Shown here: positions 19,360 to 63,762 of the stretch, one piece after another | How positions within the stretch are numbered: position 1 is the stretch's first letter | Layout of the letters: the number at the start of each line of letters is the position of its first letter | Source: Lingula anatina | Lineage: Eukaryota > Animalia > Brachiopoda | NCBI GenBank assembly: GCA_051362555.1 | Contig: CM120648.1 | Coordinates: 17,728,587-17,792,586 of the forward strand | Direction of reading: 5' to 3' | Length of the DNA: 64,000 nt | Notes under the pieces: generated by a model | Told to the model about the DNA's origin: nothing | Databases searched by the model: none | What the model saw: only the letters and a program-made list of their open reading frames with translations | Made by a program: the position numbers and the translations under genes

Positions 19360-22300
19360 TCAGTCTTCCCAAGAGCTGATATGTAAGAACAAGTCGAAGG
19401 CGTGTCCAGGGTCTGCTGTCCTCAGTTTGGGTTTGGACAGCGGCACGGACCTGGTGGAGAAACTGACACTCTCTCGCTGCAGGTCCGGGGTGAAGAAGTC
19501 CATAATGTCTGGCTCTCGAAACTGTGGGAAGATATAACATTTCAATTGAAAGAGTTGTAATCAACTGACAGTCATGTTATTTCTGTTGTAGGAGATTATA
19601 ATTGTGATTAAAAAGTTAAATTTCTTATGCAATTTTTCCTTGTTTTACCCATGTTTTCCCATGAGGTACGTAATTTTGACTCTTCAACAATGTGCCATCA
19701 TCACGTCTTGACTGACAAGAAACGTCGAAATGTTACGCCTCATAGATGAGAAACACGTTTCATCTCTAGGAAGCCATATACTAGTAAGTTTATTTCACCA
19801 TATTCAAACTTGTTAATGACTGATAAAATATTTTAACCTATGTTATCACATTTATCTTTGATTTGCTTCAAAAATTCACAAATGACTTGAACAAATGACT
19901 TGCATTTCACTCAGTTAATTTCAAAGCTTGTAAACTGACCCTAGTCCTTGCTTTTGGCATACAACACATGAAATCCGAATACTTGTTAACTGACCTTGGT
20001 CCTTGCTTTTGGCTTGGCTGCCGGTTTGACCTTGGCTGACCTCTCTACCTCCACCACCGCGGCCAGTTCATCAACTGGGACGTCCAGTCCCATCAGTTTG
20101 GTGAACTGGACGCTGTCCTTCTGCTTGTTGACCTGACCAACAGCCTGGAACAGTTATAACTCATACAGGTATATGGTGGAAATTGCATTGTGTCCAGAAA
20201 TGCATGTAACTAAAACTGCATGTAGCAGAAATGTTTCACCACAATGTGCAGTGGAATAAATGAGTATGGAGCTTAAGAATGACAGACAAAAATCTTAAGT
20301 TTCCACATAAATCTAATTACTTAAAATGATGCAAGAAGTTGTTGGACATTATTACAAATTATCTTAAAAGAAAAAAAATATTTAATGAAAATCATACACA
20401 GTACTGCACATTCCTTTTAAACTGTTAAACCATGCTCACCTTTTCTGTAACTTTAGTTTTCACTCTCTGGGATGTCTGGAGTCTGTTTTCCACTGCGGCT
20501 GCCACATCAATTGTTGATGCTTTCACTGTCTTCAGCTCTGAGGCCACCTGGAAGTTATAAACATGTTAGATACATCTCATTTCATACTGACAGATGTGAC
20601 ATGAACCTCTCTCTCTAATACAGTAAAATATCTAAGAGGCAATGTTCATGCACGTTCCAGCCAAAACCAAAGGAAATAATGTTCCACAAGATTAATACAA
20701 GATAAAGAATAATTTCATTTAAAAGGTGACGAGTTCAACAGGGTGTATAGCATTTTATGAATTTTACTAGTTAGTCAATAAGCTCACAGTTTTACTTATT
20801 TTAGAAATATCCTGACGGTGGATCCTGATGGTGAAAACCTTTCATTGGAGGCATGCATTTGCAGTAAAACTACATTTTTTTCATCATTTTACATGAATTA
20901 CACAATTGTAACTCTCTGCAATATATTTTTTGCAAAAGTTTTTATTACTGCCACAAGAGGGTCATTGAGTGACATAGGCAATAATAATAATACTAGTACC
21001 TTCAATGTGCTGTGGAATTCTGGCCTGGCATAAATGTTCTCTTCTGACCCAGACTTCTGTTGGAGCTTACCCTCTACTTTACTGGCTGGGTAATGATAGC
21101 CTCTCTTCTGATGTGTCTGGCTCCTAATGGCAGATGTAACACCTGGGGCCATTCTGTGGCTTTGTGAGGGAGGGGCAGACTGGGCCCTCTTCACATTTTG
21201 TCTGATGGCTTTTCTTGAATCAGTGTTCTCTTCAATTGCAGTGCTACCTTTAGTTTTGACACCTAAAGAAATTTTCCCAACAAAATTTTTATTGTCTTTT
21301 TTATTTCCTGGCTTAACTGTTGTTTCGCTTTTGGATTTCCCCTGCGTGGAAGGAAAAGCATCACCTTTACTTGTGTTTTCACTTATCTGGTAGCCATTTA
21401 TCTTGGTTGCAGGTTGAGTAGCCTGCGACGAATCATCCTCTTTAGTCCTATATCTGTATACTTTACTTCCACAACCCATTTCCTTCTCTCGTGTCTCTAT
21501 CAATAAGTCTTTTAAGGCATCTATTTGACTTTCTATGCTGGACTTGTCCTTGGAATGCCTTGTCACTTTAATTTGTGAGTGGAGTCCATTTTTAACATTT
21601 CCATTATTATAATGGGAGCCAGTGTCATTTTTTGTGGTATTTATAACATCAGGCTTGTTTTTGGAGTGTCCTGTTACAGAAACGCCCTCTACATCTATAC
21701 AATCTTTGGCATTCTGGACACCAGGGGTCTCTGTCCCAGGACTGTCCTGTGTGGTGGCTGAGTCTGTGCTATGACTATGAAAGCTGTCAGGAGGGGACTT
21801 CATTTGAATGACATCATCAAACCTCACCCTGTGCTGCCCCCTGGTGGTGTGATCTGGCACTAGTCTTGCCGCTACTGGAGGGCCTGGCATATAACAAGGG
21901 AAAAACATACATGCATATCAGTAACATTACATGTATGTTTGTCTGTGCAGCAAACTTATTTTCAAAACTTTTATAACTTATGCCTTAAAAATCTATCTTT
22001 AGTCAACATATGGATGGCACACTGAACTACTTTATTTTAAATGTTATCCACAATATTTTATTAAAGCAATAATAACTCTTCGTTTCGGCCAAAAAATGAA
22101 TTTTCCTAGAGTAAACAACAATTTTCCCATACTTACCAATGGTTAAAGAATCCATTTTTACATTCAAAGTTAGTCCCTGATTTTTTTCTAAAAAGTTTGG
22201 TTTTTTGTTAAAATCTCTTAAGAGATTTTAACAAAGTATAGCCAGCAATGGAAGTCACGTGGTCTAAAGACAAGCTCAGATAGCTAAATAATAGCTATAA

Positions 22301-23234
22301 CTGCTGTTTTTGTGATAAAACAGAATATATTATATTTCTATGAGTTATTCACAAGGTTTTTATTGTGAAATATAGATCTTATACGAAGAGTTATTATGGC
22401 TTTAAATGATCACCCTTATGCAACTTTTACTTTATAACACAAAAAACATTTCTCCATAGCCGACATTTTATTTTATTTCAATACTAGTAAATATTTTTTT
22501 AATGTCAATGAATTACAGACTATGGAGATGTAGCTCAACAATAAGCAAATAAAGCAATAATTTTGTAGTTTTCAGTCTCTAGTGAAAGGGACAAAACCCC
22601 ATTCAGAGCAGGGGACCAATAAGTCCGAGAGTCAAAATATGGCCAACCCACTTGAATAATTCCCCATGGAATATCTATTCAGTGTCTATTAGCGGATTAA
22701 ATGGCAAGCTTTGTTGTGGGTCGCCATATTTGATCCTCAGACTAGTTAGTCCCCAATTATGAATGGGGCCTCATAAAGCAGGGACGTTATTTTAGCCCAG
22801 TGCTCTCCCTCACCTGGTAGTTTTTCAGGTGTAATCAGAAGATCTGGATCTGGAAGTACTTTGCTAGGAAAGGCCATTCCCGTCTGTGTAGGGGAGGGTC
22901 TGTAACTTTTAGGAGTGACATCCTCATCCTCATGACCCCCTCTTCCATAAAGGTAACCCCCTTCTTTGGGTCTAGGGTCTCCATAGTCTAGTTTCTGTCT
23001 TGCTGCAGTTCCTGATCTTCTGTGCTTATTCAGTGGCATTTCTGTGCCTAGCTCAGGGGTAAATTCATAACCTGACACCCCTTGTGGATGAGAATAGAGT
23101 CTCCCTATGTTCATCATAGCATGATGGTAATAGTCATACCCAGAGATGGGTCCATGTTCTGTGGGGGGTGGTAAGGGGGGAGGGTAGGTGTGGGGTTGGG
23201 GTTGAGACTCGTGACAGTTTATATGAGCTGCCAT
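19360..23234 (-). CDS. PPP1R35: Protein phosphatase 1 regulatory subunit 35-like (~574 aa)
   Basis: Minus-strand exons 23234-22814, 21883-21000, 20547-20440, 20144-19995, 19521-19360, phase-consistent. PP1-docking RVRF motif. C-terminus (RPEFHSTLKVASEL..DVAAAVENRL..FTKLMGLDVP..PDIMDFF..AFDLFLHISSWED*) resembles the PPP1R35 C-terminal domain from memory. 5'UTR exon donor at 23823. Confidence 0.72.
19927..20013 (-). repeat. 2-copy duplication spanning a PPP1R35 splice donor (period 55)
   Basis: CTTGTAAACTGACCCTAGTCCTTGCTTTTGGC (19927) vs CTTGTTAACTGACCTTGGTCCTTGCTTTTGGC (19982, real donor at 19994). Confidence 0.85.
22065..22401. mobile_element. Non-autonomous Kolobok-like element
   Basis: TTAA|AGCAATAATAACTCTTCGT ... 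ACGAAGAGTTATTATGGCT|TTAA: TIR with AG terminus and TTAA TSD. Confidence 0.75.
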
Positions 23235-23899
23235 GTTGCTTGTTTAGTGTGACAGTAACATGATCTTCTTACATCTCCAATCTGAAATAATAAGATTTTT
23301 TTTTTTTTTAACTTTTAGATATACTGTCAGTGTGAATACATTAGTCTGAATAAAACAGATCATTAATAAATCCAAGGATGCACACATGCATTTATATCGA
23401 ATATAATGCAACTGAAGTATCAGTAAAAACTGGTAAAAACACAAATTATTGCATTTGGGAGGTGTATGCAACTATCGTAAAGTTGACAACTTACTTGAAC
23501 ATCAATATCTTTTTGTCGGATATAAACCAATTTAACCTTTTAAGGATTACAAAATTAACTATTTAGTTTGAATACATGTTCAAACTAAAGATTTAGGGAC
23601 CAAAATGTAGGAGATAAATGTTAGGGATATATATTAGTTTAACACGCTCTCTTGCGTCCTCTTCATTTGCAACCATAAGCTCTACATAGGAATGGGCACT
23701 GAAAATGTAACTCAGTATATTGACTAATTAACTGAATGGCCTTGTACTAAATAAATTATATTCTACAAATTTGTCGACATCTGAAGTTGAATTTCAGGTT
23801 AATTGAAAGATGACACAGCTTACTTTTCTATCCAGGACCTATTACTTCAGTTCAAAAGTTACCGAGATTTCAACCATGCACATATGTATCCATCTCCAC

Positions 23900-24034
23900 T
23901 TGACGTAAAACTAACATTACTGATTTTTGTCGCATCATTTACTTCAAAATCACAAAACTTTCGAATGTTGAAACTTCCGCCGAACCGGAAGTTTTTGAAA
24001 TAACGCGCATGCGTGGAAAGTTTCGTAAGTGAAC
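23900..24034. promoter_or_regulatory. Bidirectional promoter PPP1R35/SDHB
   Basis: Divergent first exons within ~200 bp. Inverted ETS pair ACTTCCG..CCGGAAGT (23973-23992), CHR-like TTTGAA (23994), NRF1-like GCGCATGCGT (24005-24014). Confidence 0.7.
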
Positions 24035-30466
<6,432 letters not shown>

Positions 30467-31512: not shown

Positions 31513-31782
31513 CAATGGCGGACTTGGGGGTGGTCTCAGGGGGGTCCTGCCCCCCCCTCGATTTCTGAAAAAAAAATCACACCTACGGTCCCCTTTTAAA
31601 ATTAGAATTTTGACCAGCTGAATCATATTTCTTAACCGTACCAAATGGCACCTTTCGCCCTTTAAAATACCAAAATATTTGGGGCCCTTCACTGAGCCCT
31701 TAAACCGCCAAAAGTGATGGGGGGTCGGTTTCGCATCCGCGCCCCCCCCCCCCTCCTTGAAATAAACCTCGATCCGCCCCTG
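31513..31782. mobile_element. MITE family D (CA..GGCGGA / TCCGCCCCTG), 5-bp TSD
   Basis: Flanked by CTCAC/CTCAC; partial reverse copy at ~33276-33490. Confidence 0.75.
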
Positions 31783-31791
31783 CTCACCTAC

Positions 31792-31822
<31 letters not shown>

Positions 31823-37620: not shown

Positions 37621-37666
37621 TTAAGTGTTGTACTTTTAACTGCACGACGCAAAATAGCTAACTGCT

Positions 37667-39072: not shown

Positions 39073-42000
39073 ATGACTACAAGTGATGTCCGAAGGGCTT
39101 CCAGGATCTCAAGCCATATTTGGATCAGTCTACTGTTCTGTTTCATACTACTTTCTTTAAAAAACGCACATGTGGACGCTGAGCCTGCCTCGTGTATTGG
39201 TAATCGGAACGCCTACAAAGGGGACGAATATGATTGCAATAAGTACTGGATATGTGGGACAGGCTTCCAGTTGTCGTGTGCCAAGGGGATGGAATGGTCG
39301 GACCTGGCTCGGGGGTGCATTATGCCAAACACCAGCTTTGATGACTGCGGGGTAACCGGAAGAGGTGAGGTTTATTGATTGATTGGAATTTTAATTGATT
39401 GAGCATTGGATCTAATTGTTTTTTTTATTCAGTGTTCGATGACTGTGGGGGAACCGGCAGAGGTGAAGTTTATTCGTTGAATTTCCAATTGATTGATTGA
39501 TTGGTCTGTTAATCACTTGGTAAATTGTGATTGAAAATTTTATTTTGTGGTTGGAAAAGCACGAAAGATAGATGAGTAGAAATGAGTACAAATATATAAA
39601 TCAATCCACCGAAACCTACTAACAAGATTATTTCATCTGTTTTTATATTCATTTATCTAAACGTTTATATTCCTTTTTTTCATATACACGTACTTTACAT
39701 CTAAATGTTTGTATAGATCCACCAAGATTCAAGCTTATAAACAACTAAAAAATGACGTTCCATTTTGGTTTGAAGTGGGAGTCAACAGATATAAGATTGG
39801 ATTCAATCTTACGCGAATCGGATGTAATGCATTATTTAGGTTTCCAGGGGGTATAGTGCACTTTTTGGTAATTTTTTTTTCTATATATCGTGATGACCCC
39901 TAAAATACAAATCTGACGGGTAACAAAAATAAATCCTTGGGAATAATAACAAACCCAAGAAGTATATATTTTATGTTTTATCCTCACATGTGTCTGTATA
40001 AAACTTCACCGTTTTGCTTCCTTAACTTTTTATAAAGTTGTTATTATTATTAGCAAATGTTAGTATTAACTAGTGCCATTATTCACGTTTAAAACAATTT
40101 CATTTTTAAATACCATGAGCCTTAGACAATTATTAAGCAAAAATTCATTTTTTGTGCGCGAAACCTCAACACGTTTCCGTTAATTCCAAATCATGAAAAC
40201 TATTATTATTATTATATCCAAACGTGCGTTGTACACCTTAAATAGAGGGAGCGAGATGAAAATGCGATTTCTTTAAAGATACTATATTAATATGGATGTG
40301 ATTCAGATAAATATGAGTCTGCGCTTAATTACAATCATAAAGCAATGGGGCGAATGGAATAAAAGTTAGTGTGTTGATGGTATTTCACTGTGCAATATTG
40401 TTCCGCGGTAACCAAGTGCGGACATCGCGGAGAGAGAAACATCCCTTGTACACAGCCGACACAAACACCACAAAACAGCACCCGGAACGCCTCTTTATGC
40501 TTCGCGTGCCTGTAGGGCGTAACTCTCAAAATATTCATAGCAACAGTTATGTCGAACACGACCTGTCAACCGCAGCAGAGAGTTGAGCTATTGAGGCAAA
40601 AAAAAAAAAAACGAACACTAAACTTTCGGTCGTGAGTCAGATCACATTATTGGTAGTTTTCCCTCGCTCGTGTGTATCTTCTATAAGAAAGACCCATGCA
40701 TTCTTTCCAATGATGTAAAGCTCAAGAGGTTTCGTTAACTAAATTTATCTAGAATTTCAGAATCTACAGGTTATGCTTTGAAAAATGGGAAATTGGAGAG
40801 CATTAAAAATAATTCTTCGCAATTTACCTTCCAGGAAGTTTGGTGACTTTATCCACCCATCCAAAATAAAGTTAACTATGGAGTTCTCTTTAAACCAACG
40901 AAATTTGTGCAAAATTGGTTGTAAATAATAACTTTTGCTGACGTGTCACATCATAATTTTTAGGATGATGAGTCTTATTGGATATTTGATTTTTTTTTTT
41001 TATCCCTAAGGACATAACGTTTAATACAGGCAACAATTTGCTACATTATTATTATTGTTAAAATGATTTGGATTGTGGGGTTATACCTTTTTTGGCCAAA
41101 TCTCGAACAATCCATATTTTTGTTGCCTTTTTTCTTGTTGTGCTATGGTACACTGGGATGGAGGAGACATAAACGATCTTTCTCATTTACAGATATCAAC
41201 GAATGTGTTAGCGGAGCCCACACGTGCGACACAATCACCCAGGATTGCGTCAACACAATTGGTAGCTTTGAATGCCACTGTAAAACTGGCTTCGAACTGG
41301 TGGATGGAAACTGCACGGGTAAGGTGGTGACATCTATCGGATGTTTTTAAAGCTTGATACTCCATAGAATATGTTGGTGTAGGTTTCATCGTTGTCTGTT
41401 TAAATAAAATAAAAAGTGAAAAAAATAAATCGTTCCCTTAAAGTTAAGGCAACTCCGAAGTTCACATCAACAAATCATTGAATTAAGACCCTATGCTGAA
41501 TTGGCATAATCTAATGAAAGAAACGTACACCTTTAATCTCAGCGTGCTTTAGAAACGATTTACTTTTTATTTCACTCAATATATCAGGGCCGTAGCCTCC
41601 GGGGGGGCAGGGGGGCAGCTGCCCCCCCTGGAATTTGGAATTTTACACACCACACCCACCCTCCTCGGTAGCTTCGCCCCTTTGTGTCCGCTTACTGCCC
41701 CCCCTGGCATTTTGCTCAGGCTACGGCCCTGTATATACAGACTTAAGCATATTTCAGCATCATATATATATATATATCGGGTAATACTTTACATTATAGT
41801 GCATATGTTGGACGTTCCGCTATCTACAAGATATTTTAGGGCACATTAAAGCTGTCCTTTGTATTCTCACGCCGTTTCCAATACTGGTAGTGCAACAGTA
41901 ATTCACTCAATTCACTGGCACTCAATTCAAATATCAAATACTCCTTTTTTCTATTTATTTATTACCATATATTGCAATGAATTGCTGATACAAATGCAGT

Positions 42001-42509
42001 GCCTACCAAGTTAATGCTGAATGGGCTACAGTTATTGAAGTAAATAATTAAAGAAAATAATTAAATTTTTCCAGACATCAATGAGTGTGAAGATTCGAAC
42101 GGCATGTGCTCTCACACGTGCACTAACACCCCTGGAACGTATTTCTGCTCGTGTCCCCCAGGGTTTCAGCTGGCCACAGGACAGCAGATGTGTATAGGTA
42201 AATATTCTAGATATGAGGACCATTAATTTGAATAACGCATATAATAAAGGGGATGAGTATAATGTACAGTAATGTGTAAAGGTAAATATTCTAGATATGA
42301 GGACCATTAATTTGAATAACGCATATAATAAAGGGGATGAGTATAATGTACAGTAATGTGTATAGGTAAATGCACTAGAAATGTGGCTGGTACCTTGGAA
42401 GTCCACAATTTCTGGCTAATATAACGTATATAATATAACGTATATAATATAACGGACAAAGACCGTTTTGTAATGTGTAGGTGCACTGATAAATAGAGTT
42501 CTTTTTGTT

Positions 42510-42540
<31 letters not shown>

Positions 42541-43560
42541 TTCATTTCTTATATTCGTGTTTGTTTGATTAATTTTGAGAGAGAGAGAGAGAAGAGGGTA
42601 ATTTCGAATGTGAGGAGGGGGGAGGTAGATTTCCTACACCCCCGTATATAGATAAAATAAATAAGTAAATAAATAAATATAATAAACTGGACCCAGTTTT
42701 ATACCTAGATACTAGTATATATTGTGTTTGATGTCAGATATTGACGAGTGTACTGAGGATAACGGTGGCTGCAGTCAAAAATGTGCGAACGAGGCCGGAT
42801 CTTACCACTGCGAGTGTCTAAACGGCTTTAGTATGCTGGCGGACAACAGAACGTGTCAAGGTGAGTGTCTAAACGGCTTTAGTATGCTGGCGGACAACAG
42901 AACGTGTCAAGGTGAGTGTCTAAACGGCTTTAGTATGCTGGCGGACAACAGAACGTGTCAAGGTGAGTGTCTAAACGGCTTTAGTATGCTGGCGGACAAC
43001 AGAACGTGTCAAGGTGAGTGTCTAAACGGCTTTAGTATGCTGGCGGACAACAGAACGTGTCAAGGTGAGTGTCTAAACGGCTTTAGTATGCTGGCGGACA
43101 ACAGAACGTGTCAAGGTGAGTGTCTAAACGGCTTTAGTATGCTGGCGGACAACAGAACGTGTCAAGGTGAGTGTCTAAACGGCTTTAGTATGCTGGCGGA
43201 CAACAGAACGCGTCAAGGCGAGTGTCTAAACGGCTTTAGTATGCTGGCGGACAACAGAACGTGTCAAGGTGAGTGAATTATGATGGCGATTTATTTAGAA
43301 ATGTATAACAAATAACATGTCACCGGCATAATGTTTATTATTGGATCTTTTGGTATAAAACAGTAATAAATTATTTAAGAAATGTACCCCTTTACATCGT
43401 GGACGCCTCTGGTGCTAAAGCTTTTGTGTCTGCACTTGGCTGTTTCTAATATTATTTGATGTTATTTCATATTCCCTTTAAAATACAAATTTATATATCG
43501 TTAAAACTCACTTCCACAATACCAAATGGCCATGATAATAAGGCCTATTATCATAATCTA

Positions 43561-43592
<32 letters not shown>

Positions 43593-44141
43593 AATATTAA
43601 TATGCACCATGCTTATATTTCAGACAACAACGAATGTGCTGATGACAACGGTGGTTGTTACCACGCATGCGTGAACACTCCCGGAAGTTACTACTGTGTG
43701 TGTCTCCCAGGGTTCACCATGCTTAGTGACGGCAGAGAGTGCAAGGGTATGCCTCTCTGATGGCTGTCGTCCTATTGAATTGATGCATCTGTTTATCTGT
43801 CAATATTCATCCATTTTACAAGAATTATTTTCTTCATTTTAATTATAGCAGTTCATCTATTAATATTTATTTATTTATTTATTTATTCACATTTTGAAAA
43901 TAATTTAAAGTAACTGAAAGTAAAAAAAATGGTTGTTAGTAAGATAAGTTTCACACTAAGAAAAGATTCCAAGCATGTTTTTACATTGCATTAGCAATGC
44001 CTGTTTCATATCAGTGTCAACATAACTAATATCTTAGATAAACACTTACCTTGAATTTGTCTTGAAGTCTGGAACAGGATGAAAAGTTTGGTCTAGAGGT
44101 TCAAAACATCTTTCGAGCTGACGCTTTTTTATTTTTTATTT

Positions 44142-44180
<39 letters not shown>

Positions 44181-47100
44181 TTTTGTGAAAGCGCCCCGGT
44201 AATTTCAATGTATTTGTATTAATCTACGTATTTAATGATAACTTCATGATCTTCAGATAACGACGAATGCGCAGTTAATAACGGTGGTTGCGAACAAATA
44301 TGTATCAACGACCCGGGCTCGTACCAGTGTGCGTGTACTCATGGGTTTGCACTGCTGGCGGACGGCAAGACGTGCAATAAGACAAGTAAATTAAGATTTT
44401 CCTGGTTGAGAAGTTTAGTGAATTAGAATATACATGTACATAACCTTATTCCACGATCTTCTGCTAAAAGAAGTCACGTAAAACAAGCTGCTTGTTCAAC
44501 TGTTAGATATGAAAATTAATTGAAGCCTTGAATAATAATAATAAGGGAGGGTTTTGTCAATGCACGTCAATGTGTATACCAGTTGACGGCCAGGTCTTAT
44601 CGGATGTCTTAGAATAGACCAGTTTATAATTATAATTTCAGCATTTGACGAATGTGAGGCTGGGTTTCACATGTGTCAGCAGAACTGTATCGATACATTT
44701 GATTCCTACATCTGCACATGCGTAACAGGCTTCACTCTGCATCCCAATGGCCTAAACTGCTCAGGTAATTATATTATATTATATTTTATTATTATATTAT
44801 ATTATATTATATTATATTATATTATATTATATTAAAAAACAAAGCCTATTTGTCACATTTTTTTTTCGTAATTTAAAATGAAAAGAAAATTAATGCAGTT
44901 TTCGAAATCAAAATCCTCAACCTAACTCTTTGAAAATAGGCGGATCTTGAACATTATATTTCAATAAATAAATAAATAAATAAATCTCTATTCTTGTCTT
45001 TTCTCCAAATAACTCTACACATTACACACACATTTTAGATGTTGATGAATGCGAGCTAAACCAAGATGGCTGCGACCATAACTGTACCAACACGTACGGT
45101 TCTTATGAGTGCAGCTGTGCCGTGGGGTATAGACTTACCGGGGATAACATGACATGTGAAGGTAACGGGCTCTCTTCATAATGTAGGGAACTCCCCGGCG
45201 TCCCATGTAACCATTAAATATACATACGTGTGTTATTATTTCTAAGGTAGTGTCTTTTATGCTACTTATTATTATACTATATTAGTAATATTAATACCCA
45301 TGGTGCCACATTTCATAATGATGCGTATATTCCAATTAGTCAGAGTGCTATATGATGTGTGGGGATGGGTGATTTTTAGGAGGAGTTCAGACCATAGAGA
45401 AAATGAAGGGCGTTTTGAAAATTAACACGACTTTTTATAATCATTATTGAGCACTCAAATGTGTACAGGTTACGATTTACAGGCTCGAATCTCTACTCTA
45501 ATCATAACATCTTTACAACAACTATACAAATTAATACAAAATACATTTTGTATTTTGACTTTGCGGGAATCTTGCCAGGCGAAAATTAATCCAATGTTTG
45601 ACAATCAGGACGAGAAACAAATGTGTTATAACATATTCATATACCAGTGACTAAACCATATTTAAGCAACTATAAACAAGTCCAGTTAAACTCATTTCCA
45701 TATTTGTAAAACTCGCCCTATTCCACTTTACTTCGTGATTCCAGATATAAACGAGTGTCTCACTGACAATGGTGGTTGTGAGCAAGAATGTGTCAACGTT
45801 CCCGGGTCAAGAAAGTGTCACTGTCGCCATGGTTACGTCATCAGTCTTCTAGATGACATCAAGTGTAGTGGTATGGCTTCTAGAATATTTCTTTATTCAG
45901 TTTATTAATTAGTTATTTTATTGGAATAGCACAAAGAACCATATTAATGTACATGTTTTCAGCCGTGTTAATTTTCATACATACATATTCTATCTACAGA
46001 GTTAATTATCCTTTTCTTGCCTCCCTTTAGCTTGTTCAAACTCTTACACCTTTTACTTACTTTTTGATGAATTTCAGGATGTATGGAACGCAAGCTTATA
46101 CTTGAACACCTCACTTCGACTTTTAAAATTAGCTTCTTTGAACAGTTTATGCAACGAGGCTCAATTTTAAATGAACGTTAAACGTTTTAAAAGGTTGAAA
46201 ATAGGCCTATGCATTTATTTATTCATTTATTACAGATGTGAATGAGTGCGCTGTGAACAAAGGCGGTTGCCACCATTTCTGTACCAATACTATTGGCTCG
46301 TTCCAGTGTAGCTGCTTGGTTGGCTTTCGGCTTAAAGAAGGCGGTCTCCAGTGCGAAGGTATTCAGTGATAGGAAATAAGAGAAACGCGAGTTAGATGCA
46401 CTAAGACACAGATTTGAACAGTGTTGAGTAAAGTATTGCTGCGATACTTAAATGTTAATTAATGACAACTATGCGCGTTGTATGACGTTATGTATTCTTA
46501 TGTAGGGCCTATACGTGTGAAAGTATTGTGGTCATGATGCAATCTTTTTAGATTGCTTAAATTTTTCAGCGAATCTCGTTATTTGCGGGCGACATTTACA
46601 GAAAATATCCTTATTTACTGATAATTAAATACTAAAGGGCATTGACAGACAATAATGCTGTGTGTCAAATATGGGTGAAGGTGAAGTGCTTTTGAAAAAT
46701 AAAATCGTGCAATTAAGGAAATTGTAAAAAGCAAATCTGCACAAGAGCGAATACAGAATTTTTTTTTTTTTTTTTTTAGATGTGAATGAATGTCTCTCTG
46801 ATAATGGCGGGTGTGAACACAAGTGTACTAATACCCAGGGCAGTTTTTACTGCTACTGTGACAATGGGTACAAACTGTCCTCCGATAACAAGACATGCTT
46901 TGGTAAGTTCCATCGTACCGTATGGGCCATGATATCTCAAAAGTAGCCACAGATAAAATCAAACAAAACAATTTTTTACAATCACAATGATATCTCTTTC
47001 AATGGAATAGTGCATGAATTTATTTATTCATTTATTCATTTATTGTTTGTTTGTTTGTTTAAACATATATTTATTTTGTAATTTGTAACAAAACAATTTT

Positions 47101-47617
47101 CATAATCAATTTTACATCTCTAAATGAGGAACAGTACATAAATTGATAATATTTTTTATTTGTTCATCTATTTATTTATGTATTTATTTATTTATTTGTA
47201 GACATTGACGAGTGTGCCCTGAAGCAACACCACTGTCAACAAATCTGTTCTAACACCCAGGGGTCGTACGAGTGCTCTTGTAACCATGGTTACACGCTAT
47301 TAGTGGACGGTAGAAGTTGTGGTAAGTGCTTATGTTCTCGTAATCGTGATGTCAAGACTGATACTGAGTGACTCCTTTGTCGCCATTCTGATATTTTCAA
47401 ATGTGTTGACATTTTTTCCCGAAAGTAATTAAAGCGCCATATTAACAGGTCCCCGTTAAAACAGACGCCATATCGTGACTTAAATTCGTATGTCTTGTCT
47501 CTGTGATCATTAAAAATGTTAGAAATGTGCTCTTATAATTTCCCAAAAAATTCCCCTTACTTAGTTCTAATTTTCTTGCAACAATTTCAGTTAAAATAAG
47601 TATTTTATGTATTAACA

Positions 47618-47667
<50 letters not shown>

Positions 47668-47839
47668 TAAATGTTTATATATCTCCAGATGAGAATGAGT
47701 GTCTGACTGGGAGACACAACTGTAACCAGCTGTGTTACGACACCCCGGGCTCCTACACCTGTGACTGTAATGATGGATATACACTGTTAGCTGACGGCAG
47801 AACATGTACAGGTGTGTGTGTGTGTGTGTGTGTGTGTGT

Positions 47840-47876
<37 letters not shown>

Positions 47877-49042
47877 TTTGTGTTTGTGTGCGTGTTTGTC
47901 TGTGAGAGAGAAGTACCTTATTTCCCCATGAGTACTTTAATACGTGCTAATGTAAGCTGTTTGTATCTTTCGTTATGCACGTTTTTAATCTTATGTTTTA
48001 ATTAAGTAAACCACCAATCCTTATTATTTATCACTAACGCCGTCTACCATTGTATTGCAGACATGAACGAGTGCACTACAATGGCTCACACGTGTCAACA
48101 GGTGTGTATGAACACCATTGGTTCCTATCAATGTGCCTGCAGACCCGGATATAAGCTGAACCCAGACCTCAGGACTTGCAGAGGTGACTTTTTTATTTAA
48201 TCTTTAATTTGATGTATTTTAGTCTTAGTCTTATGTCAACACAAACCACTAAAATACGAAGGGGAGCGAAGACCTCCGCCCCGAAAAATTATCAACTTAT
48301 AATCTCTTATAATTTAATAGATCATCACCAAAAACTAATCACTTTTAAGTTTGTCTATTTGTAACCTATCCTGATATTATCTTCAAAATCTGCCCATAAA
48401 TTTCCCTATAATGTCGCAAACAGACAGACAAATTCACAAATAAACTAACGGAAACTTGGCGGAGGTTAAAAAATTAGAAATAGGCGCATACAAATAACAC
48501 AGAGGTTCGTTTTTTATTATTATTTCTATTATTTTATTGTTTTATTTAACGTGAAAATGTATAGACAATATGATAAACGAATAAAACCTGACAACAAAGT
48601 TTGAGAAATCCGCCCAGGCATTTAACCCCAGCTTTAATTAGATTTTTTTTAACTGCGTGCTACAGATATCGATGAATGTTTGGCCCGTGCTCACGGCTTT
48701 ATTGAACTGTATGTTACAGATATCGATGAATGTATAGCCCGTACCCATGGTTGTAGCTGGGAGTTTGGTTGTTTTAACACAGAGGGGTCGTACAGGTGTA
48801 ACTGTCCCCTGGGGTACCAGCTGAACGCTGACGGATACACCTGTAGAGGTAAGGTGTTAAATAATGTATAGAATATATAATAGTCAAAAAAAATTACCAT
48901 GTGCATTCTATTTTTTATTTCAGTTTTAATTTGATGTACATTTATATAATGAATAATGTGTAATAATCAAATATTTTATTTGTGCATTCCATTCATTATT
49001 TCTTCGTTTGTTTTTATCTTTTGACAAACAGTTATATGTGCA

Positions 49043-49086
<44 letters not shown>

Positions 49087-50748
49087 CCAGACATTGATGA
49101 ATGTGCCAGCAGGACAGCAGAGTGTGAGCAGGATTGTAATAACGTAGAGGGCTCCTATATCTGCTCCTGCTTCCTTGGTTACAAACTAGACCCTGATGGC
49201 AGGGCGTGTAACGGTACGGCATGTGTTAACTTTGATATTGATAGTTTATCTAAACTTACAACCAAGACATCGAAGCTCTGCAGCCATAGTGTGAAAACAA
49301 AGAAAATGGAAAGATTTATATTATTATAGTCAATTATAATTAACGTAAGTAAAGTTACCTGCTCGTAGCCAGCAATTTAAAAAAGGGGGTTCATTTTTCT
49401 GAAAAAGTGAACCTTCCACAATGAAACCTTCGTGTAACTAGATCAATTTTCACCCAGAGGGGACCATTTCACGGCAAGAAGGGCGGTTCTTTTGAGCCTC
49501 CCCCACCCCGCTACGGGCCTGAGTTATATGCATAATAAAAACAATTGGCTTTGAAAGTATGCATTACACCGATAATCTTAAAGGCAATTTTTTGAAAGGC
49601 AGTATGAAATAAATGACTTATATTGTTCAAAAATTCAAATAAACACCTCATAACAATTAGGATCTGTCACATGTTAATATTTTCAGATATTGACGAATGT
49701 GCGTTAGGCAAGGATAACTGTGCCCACGACTGCTTTAACCACGCTGGCTCCTACTCCTGCGGATGTCACATGGGCTTCCAGCTAATGGAGGACGGGTTTT
49801 CATGTCAGGGTGAGACATCAATAGAAACAGTTAGGAGCTTTCGTTTGTCTATTTCTGCTTTTCAATTCATATTAAGAAGAAGTCTCAGTTATATTTTAAT
49901 GGTATTTTATCTGTGCCTGACGTCATTATGTAAGAGCTTGTTGTGACAGCGTTATTTCTTTCCATGGGGACAATTATTTAGGTATAATACAGTTTCACAT
50001 GTGATTCTTATCGGGTGTTGGCATCACTTATATTGAGACTATTGCGACGAAAAAAAAAGATTACTGTTAAAATGTTTATTCAGTGTTTTTCAATTCAGTT
50101 AAACTGAATATTTTATTATCTTCATTTACTGATACAGGTGTTTCATTATTGTTTATTTGTTGATTTTATATGATTATTATTTTAATAAGATGTGAACGAA
50201 TGTGCCCGCGGGTCACACGACTGTCAGCAGCTATGTGAGAATACCGTGGGGTCTTTCCAGTGCAGCTGCTCTTCTGGATTTCAACTCGCGGCAGACAAAA
50301 AAAATTGCACAGGTATATTCTCTCCCAACTCTTCCTCTCTGTCTCTCCCCCTCCCTCCATCTCTCTCTCTCATCTCTCTCTCTTTCTCATTTCGCCTTTT
50401 TAAGATTCAAAGTAAAGTATTTTTAAATGAAATAAATGTTTAAGTTAAAAGTACACGCCTTAACTTTTCAGTCTCATTATTTTACTTTATTTAAATCGAA
50501 ATTTTCGAATAGCATAAACTAATCGTATTGTTCCCAAGCATTTTTAACTGATCATGTAATCCTAGTTTTTTTTTTTTCTATTCTCAAGATATCAACGAGT
50601 GTACCAAGGGCACTCACAACTGTTCCCAGGTATGTAACAACCAGCCGGGAGGGTATTTCTGTAGTTGTTACACCGGCTACCAGCTCCAGGCAGACGGACT
50701 GGCTTGTTTCGGTGAGTTCTCAGTTCTCGAGCTTTCACTCGTGACTTC

Positions 50749-50794
<46 letters not shown>

Positions 50795-52879
50795 CTACGT
50801 AATAGTCTATCACAAATATGTGCTGATATCAGCAAGAATTGGTCTGGAATATCGACTGTATTATGTATAAATTTAATAGCAAATTAAACGGTACAGAATA
50901 TTTTGTGCGGGTATCAGTTAAGGAAAGGCTTTACAATATATCTGCTCCTACAGAAAATATTTAAGTAGTTACAGCTTTATAATATTGGTTCTTGTTTTGT
51001 TTGCAACGTTTATGTGGCAGCACAGGCGCCAGTTTGGCACAAATTTATTGTATAGACATGTATAACATTTTACCATTTTCTGGCAGATTTTAACGAGTGT
51101 ACCACGGGTACTCACCAGTGTTCTCAGGACTGCACGAACACCCCGGGGTCCTACATATGTAGCTGTAAGCCGGGATTTCTACTGCAGCCAGATAAACTGA
51201 CCTGTAGAGGTAAAATATTGAGATTTGATTAGAGGTAAAATGTTGGAATTTGACGAGGTGAAACATCGGAATTTGAAGTGGGAAAGTAGGCCTACTGTAA
51301 TTTGTAGAGCAATTATAATTTTTCTCTGTATTTTTGCATACACGATTATGAGAAAAACGTAGTATAAGTTGTTCTCTTCTTCAGATATTAACGAGTGTGA
51401 GACGCTGAACGGCGGCTGTTCGACCTACTGTACTAATATCGCAGGCTCCTTTTACTGCTCGTGTGGAGTGGGGTACCGCCTGGACTACGACGAGAGGACG
51501 TGCGTTAAAGACGGTAATAATAATAATAATATCAACAGTGAAGATATTAATAATAATAAGTAGTTTAACTCCCTTTGGTTTCAAGAAATTTGACTTAGGC
51601 TTACTTTTCAGAAGGTAAACACCATCGTGACGTCACTTTTGACATTCTGTTGACGTCACATCATATCACGTGCCTCTTGGGATATTTAACCCCCCATCGT
51701 TTGAAAAAGCCAACCTCCACCGCAGTTATTAATTTCTCCTTACAGAGGCTGCCAAATGCTACCACCCGTACGGTATCTTCCCCCACCACAGCGACTGCCG
51801 GAAGTTTATCGTGTGTGTGATGGGAGAAGTCATCTCCGTCCAGCCGTGTCCAGACGACCAGGCTTGGGACCTAGAGGCTGGACACTGCATCAACGAGACC
51901 CTGGCCAACTGCTCCAGGATTGTGCCGCCCACCAGTGAGTTTTTTTTACGTATTAGTTCGTGTATTTATAATAATAATAATAATAATAATAATAATTACC
52001 AATATGTGTCAATGATCACAGAGGAGTCATAACACTCTGATTTGAAAGTTTATCTAGGATTGTTTAAAGATAGAATAACTGCCCAAATTTAACAATATTT
52101 GCACGCTTGATGATTTTCATTCGACACCTTATGCCACTAAATCATTGATCGTTATGTTCAGTTTGCTTCTTTATACACGTGATTTGTGCGTAGAAATAAT
52201 GAGCGTAGCCTGCTCTATTTCCTGTTTAATCTCAATGTTAACAATTCAAACACGTATCCAGCAAGCACGCAACGCCATACTGACATCATTTCGACGTCAC
52301 AACATAGGCATGTCGTCATCATGACGTAATAAGAATGTTTTGCTTACGTTCAATTCCAGAACCCCCTATTTGCGAGGAGGGAGTGTACGCGGACATGGAC
52401 AACTGTGGCGGGTTTGTGGTCTGTAGCCAAAACACGCTGTTTAACTTCGTCTGTCCTGCAGGACTGCTCTTTAATAATGATACCAAGGAGTGCGAGAAAG
52501 CAGAAGACGTCGACTGCGGTGGAAGAGCGAAGTTTGGTGAGAATTTTATGTTATTTATTATTATTATTACCTCCGACAAGTCATTATTGTTTATTTATTA
52601 TTATTATAATTGGTTAATATGCAGCACACTGAGTTTGATTTCAAATACTTTTGGTGTTACTTTGTCATGCTCGACCAGCGCAAGTGTGCACGTTTTCTTA
52701 TATGTAACTCTAAAGATTTATACCCATTGCTTTTCTTATTGATAATAATATGTTAATCAATATACCTATTTGTCTGAAGGAGTGTGGTATTAGCAACTTT
52801 GACTGAGAACTTTTCATAAAACGATTGTAAATGCATGGCTCTTTTTTCATTAACAAACACTTTTAGCATTTGCATTCTG

Positions 52880-52919
<40 letters not shown>

Positions 52920-53162
52920 AGAAAAAAACACGTGAAACATTAACCTTACGACTGATCTTGTCTTCCAGCTGACCCCCTCTGCGACCATCCCAATGGCAAC
53001 TTTGAGGAGCCAACTAACTGTGCAGAGTTCTTATCGTGTGAAAATTATCTCATCTACAGACATAGAACGTGCCCCAATGGCCTGCTGTATTCCGAGGCCA
53101 GAGATCGCTGTGACTGGTCGTCTAATGTGGCATGCAGGGGGAGACCGTCATCTCCGCCTTAG
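39073..53162 (+). CDS. Secreted protein: signal peptide + CBM14 chitin-binding domain + 20 calcium-binding EGF domains + 3 CBM14 domains (~1110 aa)
   Basis: Exons 39073-39364, 41193-41318, 42075-42197, 42738-42860, 43624-43746, 44257-44385, 44642-44764, 45039-45161, 45745-45870, 46236-46358, 46780-46902, 47202-47321, 47689-47811, 48061-48183, 48720-48848, 49091-49213, 49687-49809, 50190-50312, 50589-50711, 51087-51209, 51385-51513, 51746-51934, 52360-52536, 52969-53162. All introns phase 1. EGF exons start D(I/V)(N/D)EC and mostly have CxNxxGS(Y/F)xCxC. Terminal domains show six-Cys peritrophin-A spacing (e.g. [22 protein letters not shown]). Confidence 0.9.
39337..39476 (+). repeat. 2-copy duplication of EGF-gene exon-1 donor (period 98)
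   Basis: GATGACTGCGGGGTAACCGGAAGAG|GTGAGGTTTATT vs GATGACTGTGGGGGAACCGGCAGAG|GTGAAGTTTATT. Confidence 0.88.
41585..41731. mobile_element. MITE with CAGGGCCGTAGCC TIR, 5-bp TSD
   Basis: CAGGGCCGTAGCCT...AGGCTACGGCCCTG flanked by TATAT/TATAT. Confidence 0.85.
42188..42380 (+). repeat. 84-bp tandem repeat spanning EGF-gene exon-3 donor (2.3 copies, 3 donors)
   Basis: ATGTGTA(T/A)AG|GTAAAT at 42188, 42272, 42356 with near-identical intervening 84-mers. Confidence 0.92.
42812..43275 (+). repeat. 9-copy 51-bp minisatellite of EGF-gene exon-4 3' end plus donor
   Basis: GAGTGTCTAAACGGCTTTAGTATGCTGGCGGACAACAGAACGTGTCAAG|GT x9, in frame ([17 protein letters not shown]); unit 8 has a GC instead of GT. 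Confidence 0.96.
48248..48468 (-). mobile_element. Small degenerate HINE/Helentron-like element
   Basis: Subterminal IR ACCTCCGCC (48272) / GGCGGAGGT (48458) with (CAGA)n microsatellite near one end. Confidence 0.4.
48648..48752 (+). repeat. 2-copy duplication of EGF-gene exon-15 acceptor (period 54)
   Basis: AACTGCGTGCTACAG|ATATCGATGAATGTTTGGCCCGTGCTCACGG vs AACTGTATGTTACAG|ATATCGATGAATGTATAGCCCGTACCCATGG. Confidence 0.9.
49358..49521. mobile_element. MITE family E copy, 5-bp TSD
   Basis: CCTGCTCGTAGCCAGCAATT...GCTACGGGCCTG flanked by AGTTA/AGTTA; internally similar to 37667-38007. A further degenerate copy at ~55175-55330. Confidence 0.75.
51205..51277 (+). repeat. 3-copy ~24-bp repeat spanning EGF-gene exon-20 donor
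   Basis: TAGAG|GTAAAATATTGAGATTTGA / TAGAGGTAAAATGTTGGAATTTGA / CGAGGTGAAACATCGGAATTTGA. Confidence 0.75.
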
Positions 53163-53781
53163 GGAACTGACCTTAGTTTTAATTTAAAAAAACACCATTT
53201 TTTGGTGATATTCGTTCCAAATGTAAGAAATGCTGTAAATATTATAATTCTTAAAACGGAAGCCGTGGTTTATATTAAAGGACATGCTCAAATCAAGTGG
53301 ATAGAAGATACTTCTAAAATGTATGTAGCAATGTATGTGTCTCTTTTGGGGGCCACATGTATTTAAATAAAAGGGGCAGATTTATCAGTTATTTTGTAAC
53401 TAATTACTTGTTTCCTCTTTCCAGTATTTTTTAAATTGTTTTTTCTTTGTTGTTCAGAGAGAAAACAACTGTTCGCACGAGATTCATATTTCACACTGTA
53501 AACAACACACTGGAATATAATCATTTCTATTTTACCGCCAAAACGACGGTTATGGCAATTATTCTGTGCTTGCAGTCAGACCACGTAGACCTTCGTAGAT
53601 GTCTCCTCCGTCATAACCTCTTAAGAAAAAAACATAAACTTTGAATGTCGGAATAGATTCATTAAGCATTGGTAAGTTTAGGAAAATCGTCGTTTAACCC
53701 AGGAAAATCCATTTTATTTATTTATTTATTTATTTATTTATTATTATTATTATTATTATTGTTGTTGTTGTTGTTGTTGTT

Positions 53782-57220: not shown

Positions 57221-58318
57221 CTAAGGAATCGGTGTGATGGAATAAAGCGTCATATCTGTGCTATCGTTTTCTTGACCGTCACTGGACGGTGATGGTCGGC
57301 TGGGCGACGCCTGACTCAACTTGGCCACCGGAGGAGACGTAGCCTCGTCTTGGCGTTTGGGACAAATCTTCCGCATCATTGCGGTAAACTCCCTCCTCAT
57401 CAGGGGCGCTCCTAGGATGTATATAAAGAAGTTACAAGCATGGTCGATGCCGCTGAGAAGCTTGCAGATATTTGAAACTGCGATCAGTTTTGGGCCGTTG
57501 CCATAGAGATGCGTAAGCAGCAGCATTATCAGATAAGGTAGCTCTAGAATTACGAAGACAAGTCCCGTAGCCGTGAGGGTTACTGTGAGTTTTCTTTCAT
57601 AATCCGTGGTTCTGTGGGAGACTTTCATAGAACTGGACGCTAACGTCGACTTGGCTCTGCTTCGAAAGAAAAACACAATGGTGACAAAGTTGAGCACGAG
57701 GACGAAAACCACAGGTGGCAATTCGAAGATGAGTCTGAATATATTAAACAGCAAATTTCCTAAAGTGTCTTCATTTCTAGTCCAGCAAATCCAAGTGTCG
57801 TCAACTCCGTGAATCTGTGTCACGAAAACAAAGTTGATGGAGACACAAGACGCCATTGTTAGGGCGAAAAAACAGACGGTCGCGCGCGCCTTGGGCACCG
57901 TACATAACGACTTCGCTTTGAAAGGGAAGGTCACCATAATCATTCTCTCCAAAGACACGCAGAATATCATCCAATGCGACAAACCCGTCGAAAAATATCC
58001 AATAAAGTTCATTATTTTACAGTACATGTCGTAGTTATAATGCTGTGGTAGGATCCCAGACCACTCAAGGTACCAACGGAAAATGTCCAAACAGTATAGC
58101 AAGTCTCCAATGGCTAACCCGGTCAGGTAAACTGAAACGGACAAGTCTTTCACAGCAGCTCTGTTCAGAATGATCAGGTTCAAGATATTACCAACGAGGC
58201 CTATGAAAGACGTCGGTACCATTGCCACGCGTGCAAAGGCAAGCAGCTGGGCATAAAGTTCCTCCGCCTCCTCTGACGTATTTTTCTGGTTTGAAAACAC
58301 CGAGACGTTCAACTCCAT
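57221..58318 (-). CDS. Intronless rhodopsin-class GPCR, invertebrate peptide-receptor-like (FMRFamide/sex-peptide receptor-like), ~365 aa
   Basis: Seven hydrophobic segments; GLVGNILN (TM1), YLTGLAIGDL (TM2), C..SLERMIMVTFPF (TM3), ILELP (TM6), NFFIY (TM7); N-terminal NxS/T sites. First in-frame ATG at 58318. Confidence 0.9.
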   Translation of the reverse strand: MELNVSVFSNQKNTSEEAEELYAQLLAFARVAMVPTSFIGLVGNILNLIILNRAAVKDLSVSVYLTGLAIGDLLYCLDIFRWYLEWSGILPQHYNYDMYCKIMNFIGYFSTGLSHWMIFCVSLERMIMVTFPFKAKSLCTVPKARATVCFFALTMASCVSINFVFVTQIHGVDDTWICWTRNEDTLGNLLFNIFRLIFELPPVVFVLVLNFVTIVFFFRSRAKSTLASSSMKVSHRTTDYERKLTVTLTATGLVFVILELPYLIMLLLTHLYGNGPKLIAVSNICKLLSGIDHACNFFIYILGAPLMRREFTAMMRKICPKRQDEATSPPVAKLSQASPSRPSPSSDGQENDSTDMTLYSITPIP

Positions 58319-59403: not shown

Positions 59404-59445
<42 letters not shown>

Positions 59446-62507: not shown

Positions 62508-63762
62508 TTACTTGGCGCCATCTTTTGGTGAATGTCTGTGACAGAAGTCTTTACCATGAGTACATGCCAACTTACAGGGTTGACCAGTCTTTGTGGTGCC
62601 AAGACACAGAGGACGGGCTGGGGTGCTGGTGCCACTGATACTGAAATTGAACCAATGTATAAGAATTATGTTTTATTGGTAATCATTCGTTTTACTGTAC
62701 CCTAGGTTCTAGATTTCGGTATTGCCAGCTCGTTCTTGATGTCATAACCCGCATCAGCAATACCGACACTGTAAATCTAACACATGAAAAGGTACAGCGA
62801 GCAAGCTAGCTTTATAGTGCCCTGACACTCAGGGTAGTTTTCTGTGGCTGTCATACAATGTACTCTACTCCACGGCACTGGCAGTAAACTTGAAAGCCGG
62901 AAAGAAATATTGTTGTAAATTTATTCCTTTACTGATCATTAGAACTACTTGGGTCTAGAACACTCTTAGGCTCTTTGTTCTAAACGGTATCATACTAAAA
63001 GTTTCTTAGCACAGATCTCTCATCAAATTTGCCAATATTTTAGCACAATCAAAACTACACTATAGTAAAGAAAATTACCCATCAGTCGCTTGCTAAGACG
63101 TTTTTAGCACAGACGGACCTCGCATAAAGATAACCACGATATTTTAATTTAATCAAAACTACAATATGGTGAACAAAATTACCCGTCAGTCACTTTTAAT
63201 GGCGTCCTACTACGACTCCGTGAACGACGTCGACGGGTTGTAGATCTCCCGTCCAAGGTGTCCAGTAGATGGCGCTTTACCTGACTCACTTCAAGCTGTA
63301 ACGTGACGACACATTTTCTAATAATGAATCTGCAAATAGACTCACTGTGATAACATCAATTTACCTCAAAAAGTTAGAAAAAGTCAACTTGATAAAATAC
63401 GTTGATTTTATTCACAAATGTGCAAATGGAAATTGTTCAAGATAGCTTATTAGAACGTCATATAGCGCTGAAAAATGTCTGAGAATCCGTGCGAGGTGGA
63501 GCTATTACTTTTAAATGATACTGCTGAAAGTATGCGAAACCATTACCATAGCAACTCTGACAACATCAACCTACCAGTCTTGGCGTCTCAGCCGCAGTAA
63601 AGGAGGCTTCCTGGTCAGGCATGGGGGTGGCTGGAAGAACTGAGGGGGTGGCCGGGAGAACTGAGGGGGTGGCCAAAAGGGGTGTAGTCCTCCTGGGGGT
63701 GGATGCCCTACTGGTTCTTGGGGTGTCCAACACACTAGATGTACTGGTGTTCAGGTAATGGT
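62508..63762 (-). CDS. 3' exons of an unknown gene: S/T/P/R-rich region and C-terminal C-x8-C-x9-C-x2-H motif (5' part outside window)
   Basis: Minus exons 63762-63575 (..TPRTSRASTPRR..ATPSVLPATPSVLPATP..), 63280-63183 (VKRHLLDTLDGRSTTRRRSRSRSRTPLKVTD), 62640-62508 (ISGTSTPARPLCLGTTKTGQPCKLACTHGKDFCHRHSPKDGAK*); phases 1/0/2 consistent. Confidence 0.7.
62990..63207 (-). repeat. Degenerate 2-3-copy duplication spanning a splice donor of the unknown gene (period 104)
   Basis: AATCAAAACTACAATATGGTGAACAAAATTACCCGTCAGTCACTT (63151; real donor at 63182) vs AATCAAAACTACACTATAGTAAAGAAAATTACCCATCAGTCGCTT (63047); older partial copy from ~62990. Confidence 0.8.

What the first reader, a model, noticed from the sequence alone, without database searches (positions are those of the whole stretch)
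19927..63207. Recurrent tandem duplication of exon-intron junctions in four unrelated genes: a splice-site-centred repeat-generating process
Seen directly: at least nine junctions are the anchor of a local tandem duplication. They are PPP1R35 donor (2x55), SDHB exon-5 donor (31x69), SDHB exon-7 donor (2x~110), EGF-gene exon-1 donor (2x98), exon-3 donor (3 donors, 84), exon-4 donor (9x51), exon-15 acceptor (2x54), exon-20 donor (3x~24), and the unknown gene's donor (2-3x104). That is roughly one intron in five here. Units have unrelated sequences and lengths and lie on both strands. Each includes the splice site plus flanking exon sequence, and the extra copies always lie on the intron side, so the original exon is intact. 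Ages range from near-identical to heavily decayed, so the process is ongoing and long-lived. Inference: either duplications are preferentially initiated at splice sites (spliceosome- or R-loop-associated breaks, RNA-templated or microhomology-mediated repair), or they arise everywhere and are simply visible and tolerated there. I know of no standard feature class for this.
Basis: partly seen in the sequence, partly recalled or inferred. Interest (0 to 1): 0.92.

Follow-up and report, generated by a model that had tools for sequence, protein, structure and literature searches.

The report
Splice-junction "mirage" repeats in a brachiopod
In the lamp shell Lingula, about one intron in five in this stretch carries head-to-tail copies of its own exon edge and splice signal, a repeat type already named "mirage" in lancelets that is likely tolerated duplication debris, although it sits on splice sites here about three times more often than chance predicts.

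Summary
The window is from the brachiopod Lingula anatina. A blind scan found 17 local duplications above the shuffle null; 8 span a splice junction (7 donors, 1 acceptor; 8 of 42 introns). The ninth claimed case (SDHB exon 7) is plausible but below threshold. The SDHB 31x69 array is in public read data, appears to vary in size between samples, and spliced reads leave at the first donor, giving a normal 282-aa protein. The class is not new: these match the amphioxus 'mirages' and human F7-type junction minisatellites, and this scan noted the same in 8 findings on other genomes. My searches found no brachiopod report. Within genes, 8 of 11 duplications hit junctions against 2.55 expected (P 0.0005; P 0.002 after a simulated visibility correction), but the window was picked for this pattern. 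Breakpoints do not coincide with splice sites; the two large arrays have 3-5 nt microhomology, as for ordinary DNA slippage. 'Extra copies lie intron-side' is a logical necessity, not evidence. Open leads: the three exon-rich units are all in-frame and stop-free, and one RNA run has some array-containing reads.

The parts
19927..20013 (-). PPP1R35-like gene, donor of the penultimate exon duplicated once (period 55; 19 nt of exon; real intron starts at 19994)
   Evidence: PPP1R35_C in last exon, E 2.6e-5, below Pfam cut-off; spanned by contigs of X2 and X9; splicing here not shown by RNA (3-7 reads only)
26257..28353 (+). SDHB exon-5 donor array, 31 units (45 nt exon + 24 nt intron; 25 x 69, 5 x 60, last 72); in frame and stop-free; ATC microhomology at the ends
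   Evidence: DNA and RNA reads
28957..29193 (+). Probable decayed duplication at the SDHB exon-7 donor, split by a TTTA microsatellite; below the blind threshold, not counted
39337..39500 (+). EGF/chitin-binding gene, exon-1 donor duplicated once (period 98; 28 nt exon)
   Evidence: spanned by an X3 contig
42188..42386 (+). EGF gene exon-3 donor, period 84, three GT copies (10 nt exon)
42812..43275 (+). EGF gene exon-4 donor array, 9 x 51 nt, 99% alike (49 nt exon); in frame and stop-free; GAGTG microhomology between exon interior and donor
48651..48755 (+). EGF gene exon-15 acceptor duplicated once (period 54; 31 nt exon); the only acceptor case; the upstream copy would add 18 codons without a stop
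51205..51281 (+). EGF gene exon-20 donor, three decaying copies of 23-25 nt (5 nt exon)
62987..63195 (-). Donor of an unnamed gene duplicated once (period 104; about 13 nt exon)
   Evidence: exon join inferred from an open frame only; no Pfam hit for the last exon
24035..30466 (+). SDHB, 9 exons, 282 aa
   Evidence: introns 1, 2, 4, 5, 6, 8 seen in RNA
39073..53164 (+). 24-exon gene: CBM14 domain, 20 calcium-binding-EGF-type exons, three chitin-binding-type exons; 1110 aa open frame
   Evidence: no RNA over exons 1-4 in X12 or X15
19327..23281 (-). PPP1R35-like gene, 5 modelled exons
25464..25519 (+). Control: young 33-nt duplication inside SDHB intron 3, not at a junction; absent from an X2 contig
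30220..30320 (+). Control: 54-nt duplication inside SDHB intron 8, not at a junction

Best explanation
These are 'mirage' minisatellites: tandem copies of an exon edge with its splice signal, which likely arise by ordinary DNA slippage or microhomology-guided repair and likely persist because the splicing machinery takes the first donor and ignores the copies. Shown: each unit is a copy of its own host junction; the SDHB array is in read data and SDHB is spliced at the first donor; the junction sits at no fixed place in the unit; the two large arrays have 3-5 nt of microhomology at their ends. Inferred: a single duplication comes first; some then grow and shrink by unequal exchange; donor copies are shielded by 5'-to-3' choice of the first site (shown for human F7, assumed here), acceptor copies less so, which would explain 7 donors to 1 acceptor; one copy is held constant by selection on the exon, so such duplicates stay recognisable longer; copies likely to be mis-used survive mostly when in frame. 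The remaining excess at junctions is probably in part an effect of how this window was chosen.
For: Definition and behaviour match amphioxus mirages (PMC3087553 passages; PMC3902484 passages) and human F7, CBS, LMNB2, PDGF, 6-16 minisatellites (PMC1557585 abstract and introduction). RNA: 94 and 153 reads join exon 5 to exon 6 with the first copy's ending, not the last copy's; 140 X15 reads leave at the first unit's donor into exon 6 with full agreement; public protein has no insert. Junction position in unit uniform. Microhomology ATC and GAGTG. 9 of 17 duplications lie away from annotated junctions, one of them absent in another sample, so the process runs elsewhere too. Rough array depth differs: X1 8-18, X2 10-18, X9 5-10, X3 0.5-5 times single copy. 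Simulation: junction duplicates stay detectable about 1.36 times longer.
Against: The excess is larger than visibility explains: 8 of 11 against 3.16 expected with the 1.36 weight (P 0.002), and 4.03 with a weight of 2 (P 0.013); without the two big arrays 6 of 9 against 2.13 (P 0.006). In X15, 16 sense reads from 5 start places cross a unit boundary while four intron-only bins of SDHB have zero depth, so the array may not be wholly silent. The 7:1 donor bias is not significant (P 0.07). First-donor use was shown for 1 of 8 cases only. Microhomology is clear in 2 of the 5 cases inspected.
Confidence: 0.62

Rival explanations
1. Splice junctions are real mutational hotspots for short tandem duplication in this animal, for example through nicks at R-loops or paused polymerase during co-transcriptional splicing, or at nucleosome edges, repaired by strand displacement.
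For: Three-fold excess in genes (8 of 11 against 2.55, P 0.00045), still 2.5-fold after the simulated visibility weight; 4 of 7 young genic duplications at junctions against 1.62 (P 0.049); donor-heavy 7:1.
Against: The window was selected for this pattern, so the P values are inflated by an unknown amount; n is small; with weight 2 the young set is not significant (P 0.22). No breakpoint pile-up at the junction. Five of eight cases lie in a gene with no reads in the two RNA runs laid on it (germline expression unknown). One search for papers joining tandem duplication, microhomology, splice sites and R-loops found none.
Confidence: 0.25
2. The arrays are functional: downstream donors are used, or splicing is delayed, to tune SDHB or EGF-protein output, with copy number as the dial.
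For: The three exon-rich units (69, 51, 54 nt) are all in frame and stop-free, where 0.22 of random exon-rich units would be (about 0.01 for three, noticed after the fact); the 60-nt SDHB variant is also a multiple of three. 16 array-crossing RNA reads against 153 spliced in X15.
Against: No such joint in polyA run X12 (0 against 94 spliced; that animal may lack the array); public protein is normal length and no hit with the unit repeated was found among 17 proteins; array size appears to range from about 1 to over 15 copies between samples; an in-frame bias is also what a selective filter on harmless debris predicts.
Confidence: 0.08
3. The copies are inserted from RNA (reverse-transcribed mRNA, reverse-spliced lariat) or by an intron-generating mobile element.
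For: Only the association with splice sites.
Against: Units carry intron sequence next to exon sequence, never the next exon; each is a copy of its own host junction, not a shared family; breakpoints are off the junction. A template of unspliced pre-mRNA is not excluded.
Confidence: 0.03
4. The arrays are assembly artefacts.
For: No laid contig spans a whole large array; run X3 shows no unit-to-unit joint.
Against: Unit-to-unit joint at about 16-20 times single-copy depth in X1, array reads in X15, raised depth in X2 and X9; internal variants among the 31 units; older duplicates are only about 75-90% alike and two are spanned by contigs of other samples.
Confidence: 0.02

Closest known systems
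Amphioxus 'mirage' minisatellites (Adh3, globins BflGb6 and BflGb9, troponin C, PGBD5); PMC3087553, PMC3902484
   Same: Tandem units spanning an exon-intron boundary, both donors and acceptors, unit lengths 10-160 nt there and 24-104 nt here, copy number differing between haplotypes, homogeneous interior with a divergent end unit, normal splicing, several genes per genome, mechanism called unclear.
   Different: Brachiopod (protostome) rather than cephalochordate; the papers seen describe single genes and give no test against background; somatic instability is reported for Adh3 and untested here.
Human junction-spanning minisatellites: F7 intron 7 (37 nt), CBS intron 13, LMNB2, PDGF intron 4, interferon-inducible 6-16; PMC1557585
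   Same: First unit spans the donor, identical pseudo-donors follow, polymorphic copy number, first site used (with leak to the next one or two in CBS and 6-16).
   Different: Described as a handful of genes in human; here 8 of 42 introns in one window.
Variable internal tandem repeats at exon-intron boundaries in human segmental duplications; intron gain by tandem duplication (PMC2812944; Rogers model as cited in PMC3087553)
   Same: Tandem repeats at exon borders as raw material for new splice patterns.
   Different: There they alter gene structure in young paralogs; here no new intron or isoform was shown, and the hosts include single-copy housekeeping genes.

Membership tests
mirage minisatellite | Head-to-tail repeat whose unit spans a real exon-intron boundary | tested here: met
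   8 cases; boundary shown by RNA for SDHB only, by open frame and GT/AG for the rest
mirage minisatellite | Copies carry the splice signal | tested here: met
   GT or AG kept in the copy next to the real site in 8 of 8; GTGAGT in 31 of 31 SDHB units
mirage minisatellite | Unit length in the minisatellite range (10-160 nt in amphioxus) | tested here: met
   periods 24-104 nt
mirage minisatellite | Normal splicing of the host mRNA | tested here: met
   SDHB only; a minority of array-crossing reads in X15; not tested for the other 7
mirage minisatellite | Copy-number difference between haplotypes or animals | tested here: inconclusive
   contig depth on the SDHB unit differs several-fold among X1, X2, X9, X3, but the tool warns that depth is no copy number
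mirage minisatellite | Homogenised interior with a divergent terminal unit | tested here: met
   27 of 31 SDHB units share one donor context, the last unit is unique; EGF donor-4 units 99% alike
mirage minisatellite | Somatic instability (reported for Adh3) | not testable with these tools
   needs single-molecule typing within one animal
intron-generating transposon / RNA-derived insert | Shared element sequence or exon-exon (spliced) sequence inserted at the site | tested here: not met
   each unit copies its own host exon end plus its own intron

The most novel reading that the evidence does not exclude
In Lingula, and perhaps widely in marine invertebrates, splice junctions are two- to three-fold hotspots for short tandem duplication through damage tied to transcription and splicing, and what survives is sorted by splicing rules: donor copies are shielded by first-site choice, while exon-rich or acceptor copies persist only in frame; large arrays such as the SDHB one would then act as copy-number dials on splicing speed and as a standing source of new introns and exon extensions.
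Probability: 0.25. Interest if true: 0.65.

Novelty: new member of a known kind. Interest (0 to 1): 0.32.

Why it matters
As it stands it extends a little-known repeat type from lancelets and a few human genes to brachiopods, at high local density, and warns that such arrays can mislead gene prediction (the SDHB array reads as a 722-codon open frame). If the junction excess holds genome-wide it would link splicing to where DNA duplicates and would give a countable test of the old idea that introns arise from tandem duplication. The SDHB array (30 spare donors, apparently varying among animals) is a natural test of first-donor choice outside mammals.

Tried and rejected
No whole genome is held, so the enrichment could not be tested outside this pre-selected window. 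The run search listed no RNA holder by index; RNA runs came by species label. The EGF gene had no reads over exons 1-4 in X12 and X15, and PPP1R35-like had only a few reads in X15 and X18, so their splicing is unconfirmed. The first gapped scan hid hits behind large arrays; it was rerun with a score cap. Of 23 rows, 5 scoring 24-30 bits were dropped (none at an annotated junction) and two rows of one satellite were merged; adding back the one dropped genic intronic row gives 8 of 12 against 2.81 (P 0.0013). A junction-by-junction test flagged 7 further EGF or unknown-gene sites at P up to 0.02; several lie beside microsatellites, none was in the blind list, none was counted. A search for a longer public protein from the EGF gene's first exon found nothing (weak evidence). 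A search with the SDHB read-through frame found duplicated motifs in other organisms that look like whole-exon or whole-domain doublings, not this unit. The original amphioxus Adh3 paper is not held and is known only through PMC3087553. Searches for a brachiopod report and for a genome-wide enrichment study found none; most subscription papers are outside the library. PMC12783039 (earthworm metallothionein; passages) describes intronic repeats, not junction copies. Supplements of PMC3087553 (alignments of the mirages) and PMC3902484 were not opened and may bear on unit anatomy.
Full report
Source and gene models. The single-exon GPCR at 57224-58318 is 98% identical to a Lingula anatina protein, and the SDHB model built here is identical over 282 of 282 residues to the public Lingula SDHB, so the window is from this brachiopod. 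No whole genome is held. I modelled five spliced genes by hand: RER1, a PPP1R35-like gene, SDHB, a 24-exon EGF/chitin-binding gene and the last three exons of an unnamed gene. All 42 introns are GT..AG and the frames are open; Pfam supports the names for RER1, SDHB and the EGF/CBM14 exons, gives a sub-threshold PPP1R35_C hit and nothing for the unnamed gene's last exon. RNA shows SDHB introns 1, 2, 4, 5, 6 and 8 among the displayed rows. Other genes in the window (a multi-copy element at about 32.5-37.5 kb, short duplicated genes near 1-4 kb, 5' UTR introns) were not modelled, so whole-window expectations are too low and the within-gene test is the one to use.

The observation. A scan blind to annotation (local-composition log-odds, gaps allowed, periods 14-300, microsatellites masked) gave no hit of 30 bits or more in 20 shuffled windows. 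On the real window the capped rerun gave 23 rows of 24 bits or more; 18 reach 30 bits and form 17 loci. The SDHB exon-7 case has two short matches around a microsatellite and is left uncounted. The other nine loci are intergenic or UTR (5), intronic (3: a 145-nt satellite in RER1 intron 2, 33 nt in SDHB intron 3, 54 nt in SDHB intron 8) and exon-internal (1).

Real and variable. Laying reads on a stretch that holds only the last SDHB unit shows a joint going back by one period in DNA run X1 at depth 1176, against 57-74 for single-copy pieces, and in 16 sense reads of RNA run X15; run X3 shows no such joint. With only the first unit in the stretch, depth rises in X2 and X9. Rough arithmetic gives 8-18, 10-18, 5-10 and 0.5-5 times single-copy depth for X1, X2, X9 and X3; the tool warns that depth is no copy number, and X1 may be the source sample. 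Two older duplications are spanned by contigs from other samples without a unit-sized gap (PPP in X2 and X9, EGF donor 1 in X3), whereas the young intronic 33-nt duplication is missing from an X2 contig.

Splicing. Exon 5 to exon 6 reads carry the ending of the first copy, not of the last (94 reads in X12, 153 in X15), and 140 X15 reads leave at the first unit's donor into exon 6. Because 27 of 31 units share that ending, a minority of reads from inner donors cannot be excluded. Against full silence: the 16 array-crossing X15 reads (5 start places) stand against zero depth in four intron-only SDHB bins; they may be unspliced or retained intron 5 or minor donor use, and the output cannot tell which. 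X12 (polyA) has none, but that animal may lack the array. The other seven cases have no RNA test.

More than chance? With arrays collapsed to one unit and units placed at random in the five genes, leaving out exon-internal placements, 2.55 of 11 would span a junction; 8 do (P 0.00045). A simulation in which the real exon and donor stay nearly frozen while all else decays makes junction duplicates detectable about 1.36 times longer (depends on my rate choices). With that weight 3.16 are expected (P 0.002), with weight 2, 4.03 (P 0.013), with weight 3, 5.03 (P 0.06). Among young genic duplications it is 4 of 7 against 1.62 (P 0.049). So the excess is real in this window and not explained by visibility alone, but the window was flagged because of it, and I had no unselected Lingula sequence to test.

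Mechanism. The share of exon in the unit is 0.35, 0.65, 0.29, 0.12, 0.96, 0.20, 0.12 and 0.57, compatible with uniform (KS P 0.48): breakpoints do not sit at the splice site. Units join exon to its own intron, never to the next exon, which excludes a spliced-mRNA template. The two large arrays have ATC and GAGTG shared by both ends, the kind of short homology expected from slippage or microhomology-mediated repair (established knowledge, recalled); the older cases are too decayed to read. That the extra copies lie in the intron is forced by geometry. The 7:1 donor bias (P 0.07) fits first-site choice: in human F7 the most upstream of identical donors is taken (PMC1557585, abstract and introduction seen), which would shield donor copies but expose an acceptor copy placed upstream (my inference). 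In line with a filter, the only acceptor case and the two exon-rich donor arrays are in frame and stop-free, and the five intron-rich units are not; 0.22 of random exon-rich and 0.12 of intron-rich units would be. This was noticed after the fact on eight cases.

What is known. [quoted passage not shown] PMC3902484 (passages) adds PGBD5 and troponin C. PMC1557585 lists five human genes. PMC2812944 (passages) covers repeats at exon borders in human paralogs. The Adh3 paper itself was not available. Searches for a Lingula or brachiopod case and for a genome-wide test found none within this library. I had reached the mirage reading before looking at the scan's notes; one search then showed 8 earlier findings on other genomes (sea urchin, annelid and others) with the same reading, two of which mention a modest or two-fold junction excess; these are unchecked notes and are not counted as support. 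None concerns Lingula.

Verdict. Real, dense, a new member of a known kind in a phylum for which I found no report. Best reading: ordinary duplication debris, tolerated through first-donor choice and sorted by selection (0.62); a true junction hotspot remains possible (0.25). Interest 0.32.

Noticed in passing
window 32500-37500: About 5 kb at contig depth of roughly 4000-10000 against about 70 for single-copy DNA in X1 (2000-4700 against 35-50 in X3): a multi-copy element that is transcribed on both strands and spliced (joint 33245 to 33735 in 128 and 24 reads). No long open frame and no clear terminal inverted repeat was found.
   Followed up: partly
window 1-850 and 3420-3920: Two similar copies of a short two-exon gene fragment whose frame reads like a secreted precursor with paired basic residues followed by a Glu/Arg-rich run; downstream flanks are duplicated about three times (1200-2100, 4050-4900, 4980-5700). 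Read by eye, not tested.
   Followed up: no
window 9637-11108: 145-nt satellite of about ten units in two blocks inside RER1 intron 2, apparently within an inserted element; not at a junction.
   Followed up: partly
window 23820-24040: SDHB and the PPP1R35-like gene appear to be head to head with a very short shared promoter region; SDHB RNA 5' ends pile up at 24037. The minus-strand first exon was read by eye only.
   Followed up: no
window 26200-28449: The SDHB array is open in three of six frames for over 700 codons, a trap for gene prediction.
   Followed up: yes
window 22060-22405: A very high-copy short element (contig depth above one million in X2 and X9) in PPP1R35-like intron 1; an X9 contig skips it, so the insertion looks polymorphic.
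   Followed up: no
window 63623-63674: In-frame 21-nt exon-internal repeat (about 2.5 copies) in the unnamed minus-strand gene, whose last exon ends in a Cys-Cys-Cys-His-type motif with no Pfam match.
   Followed up: partly
window 28290-42866, run X1: At heterozygous sites in single-copy DNA the two alleles stand at about 50 to 20 in depth rather than 1 to 1; unexplained.
   Followed up: no
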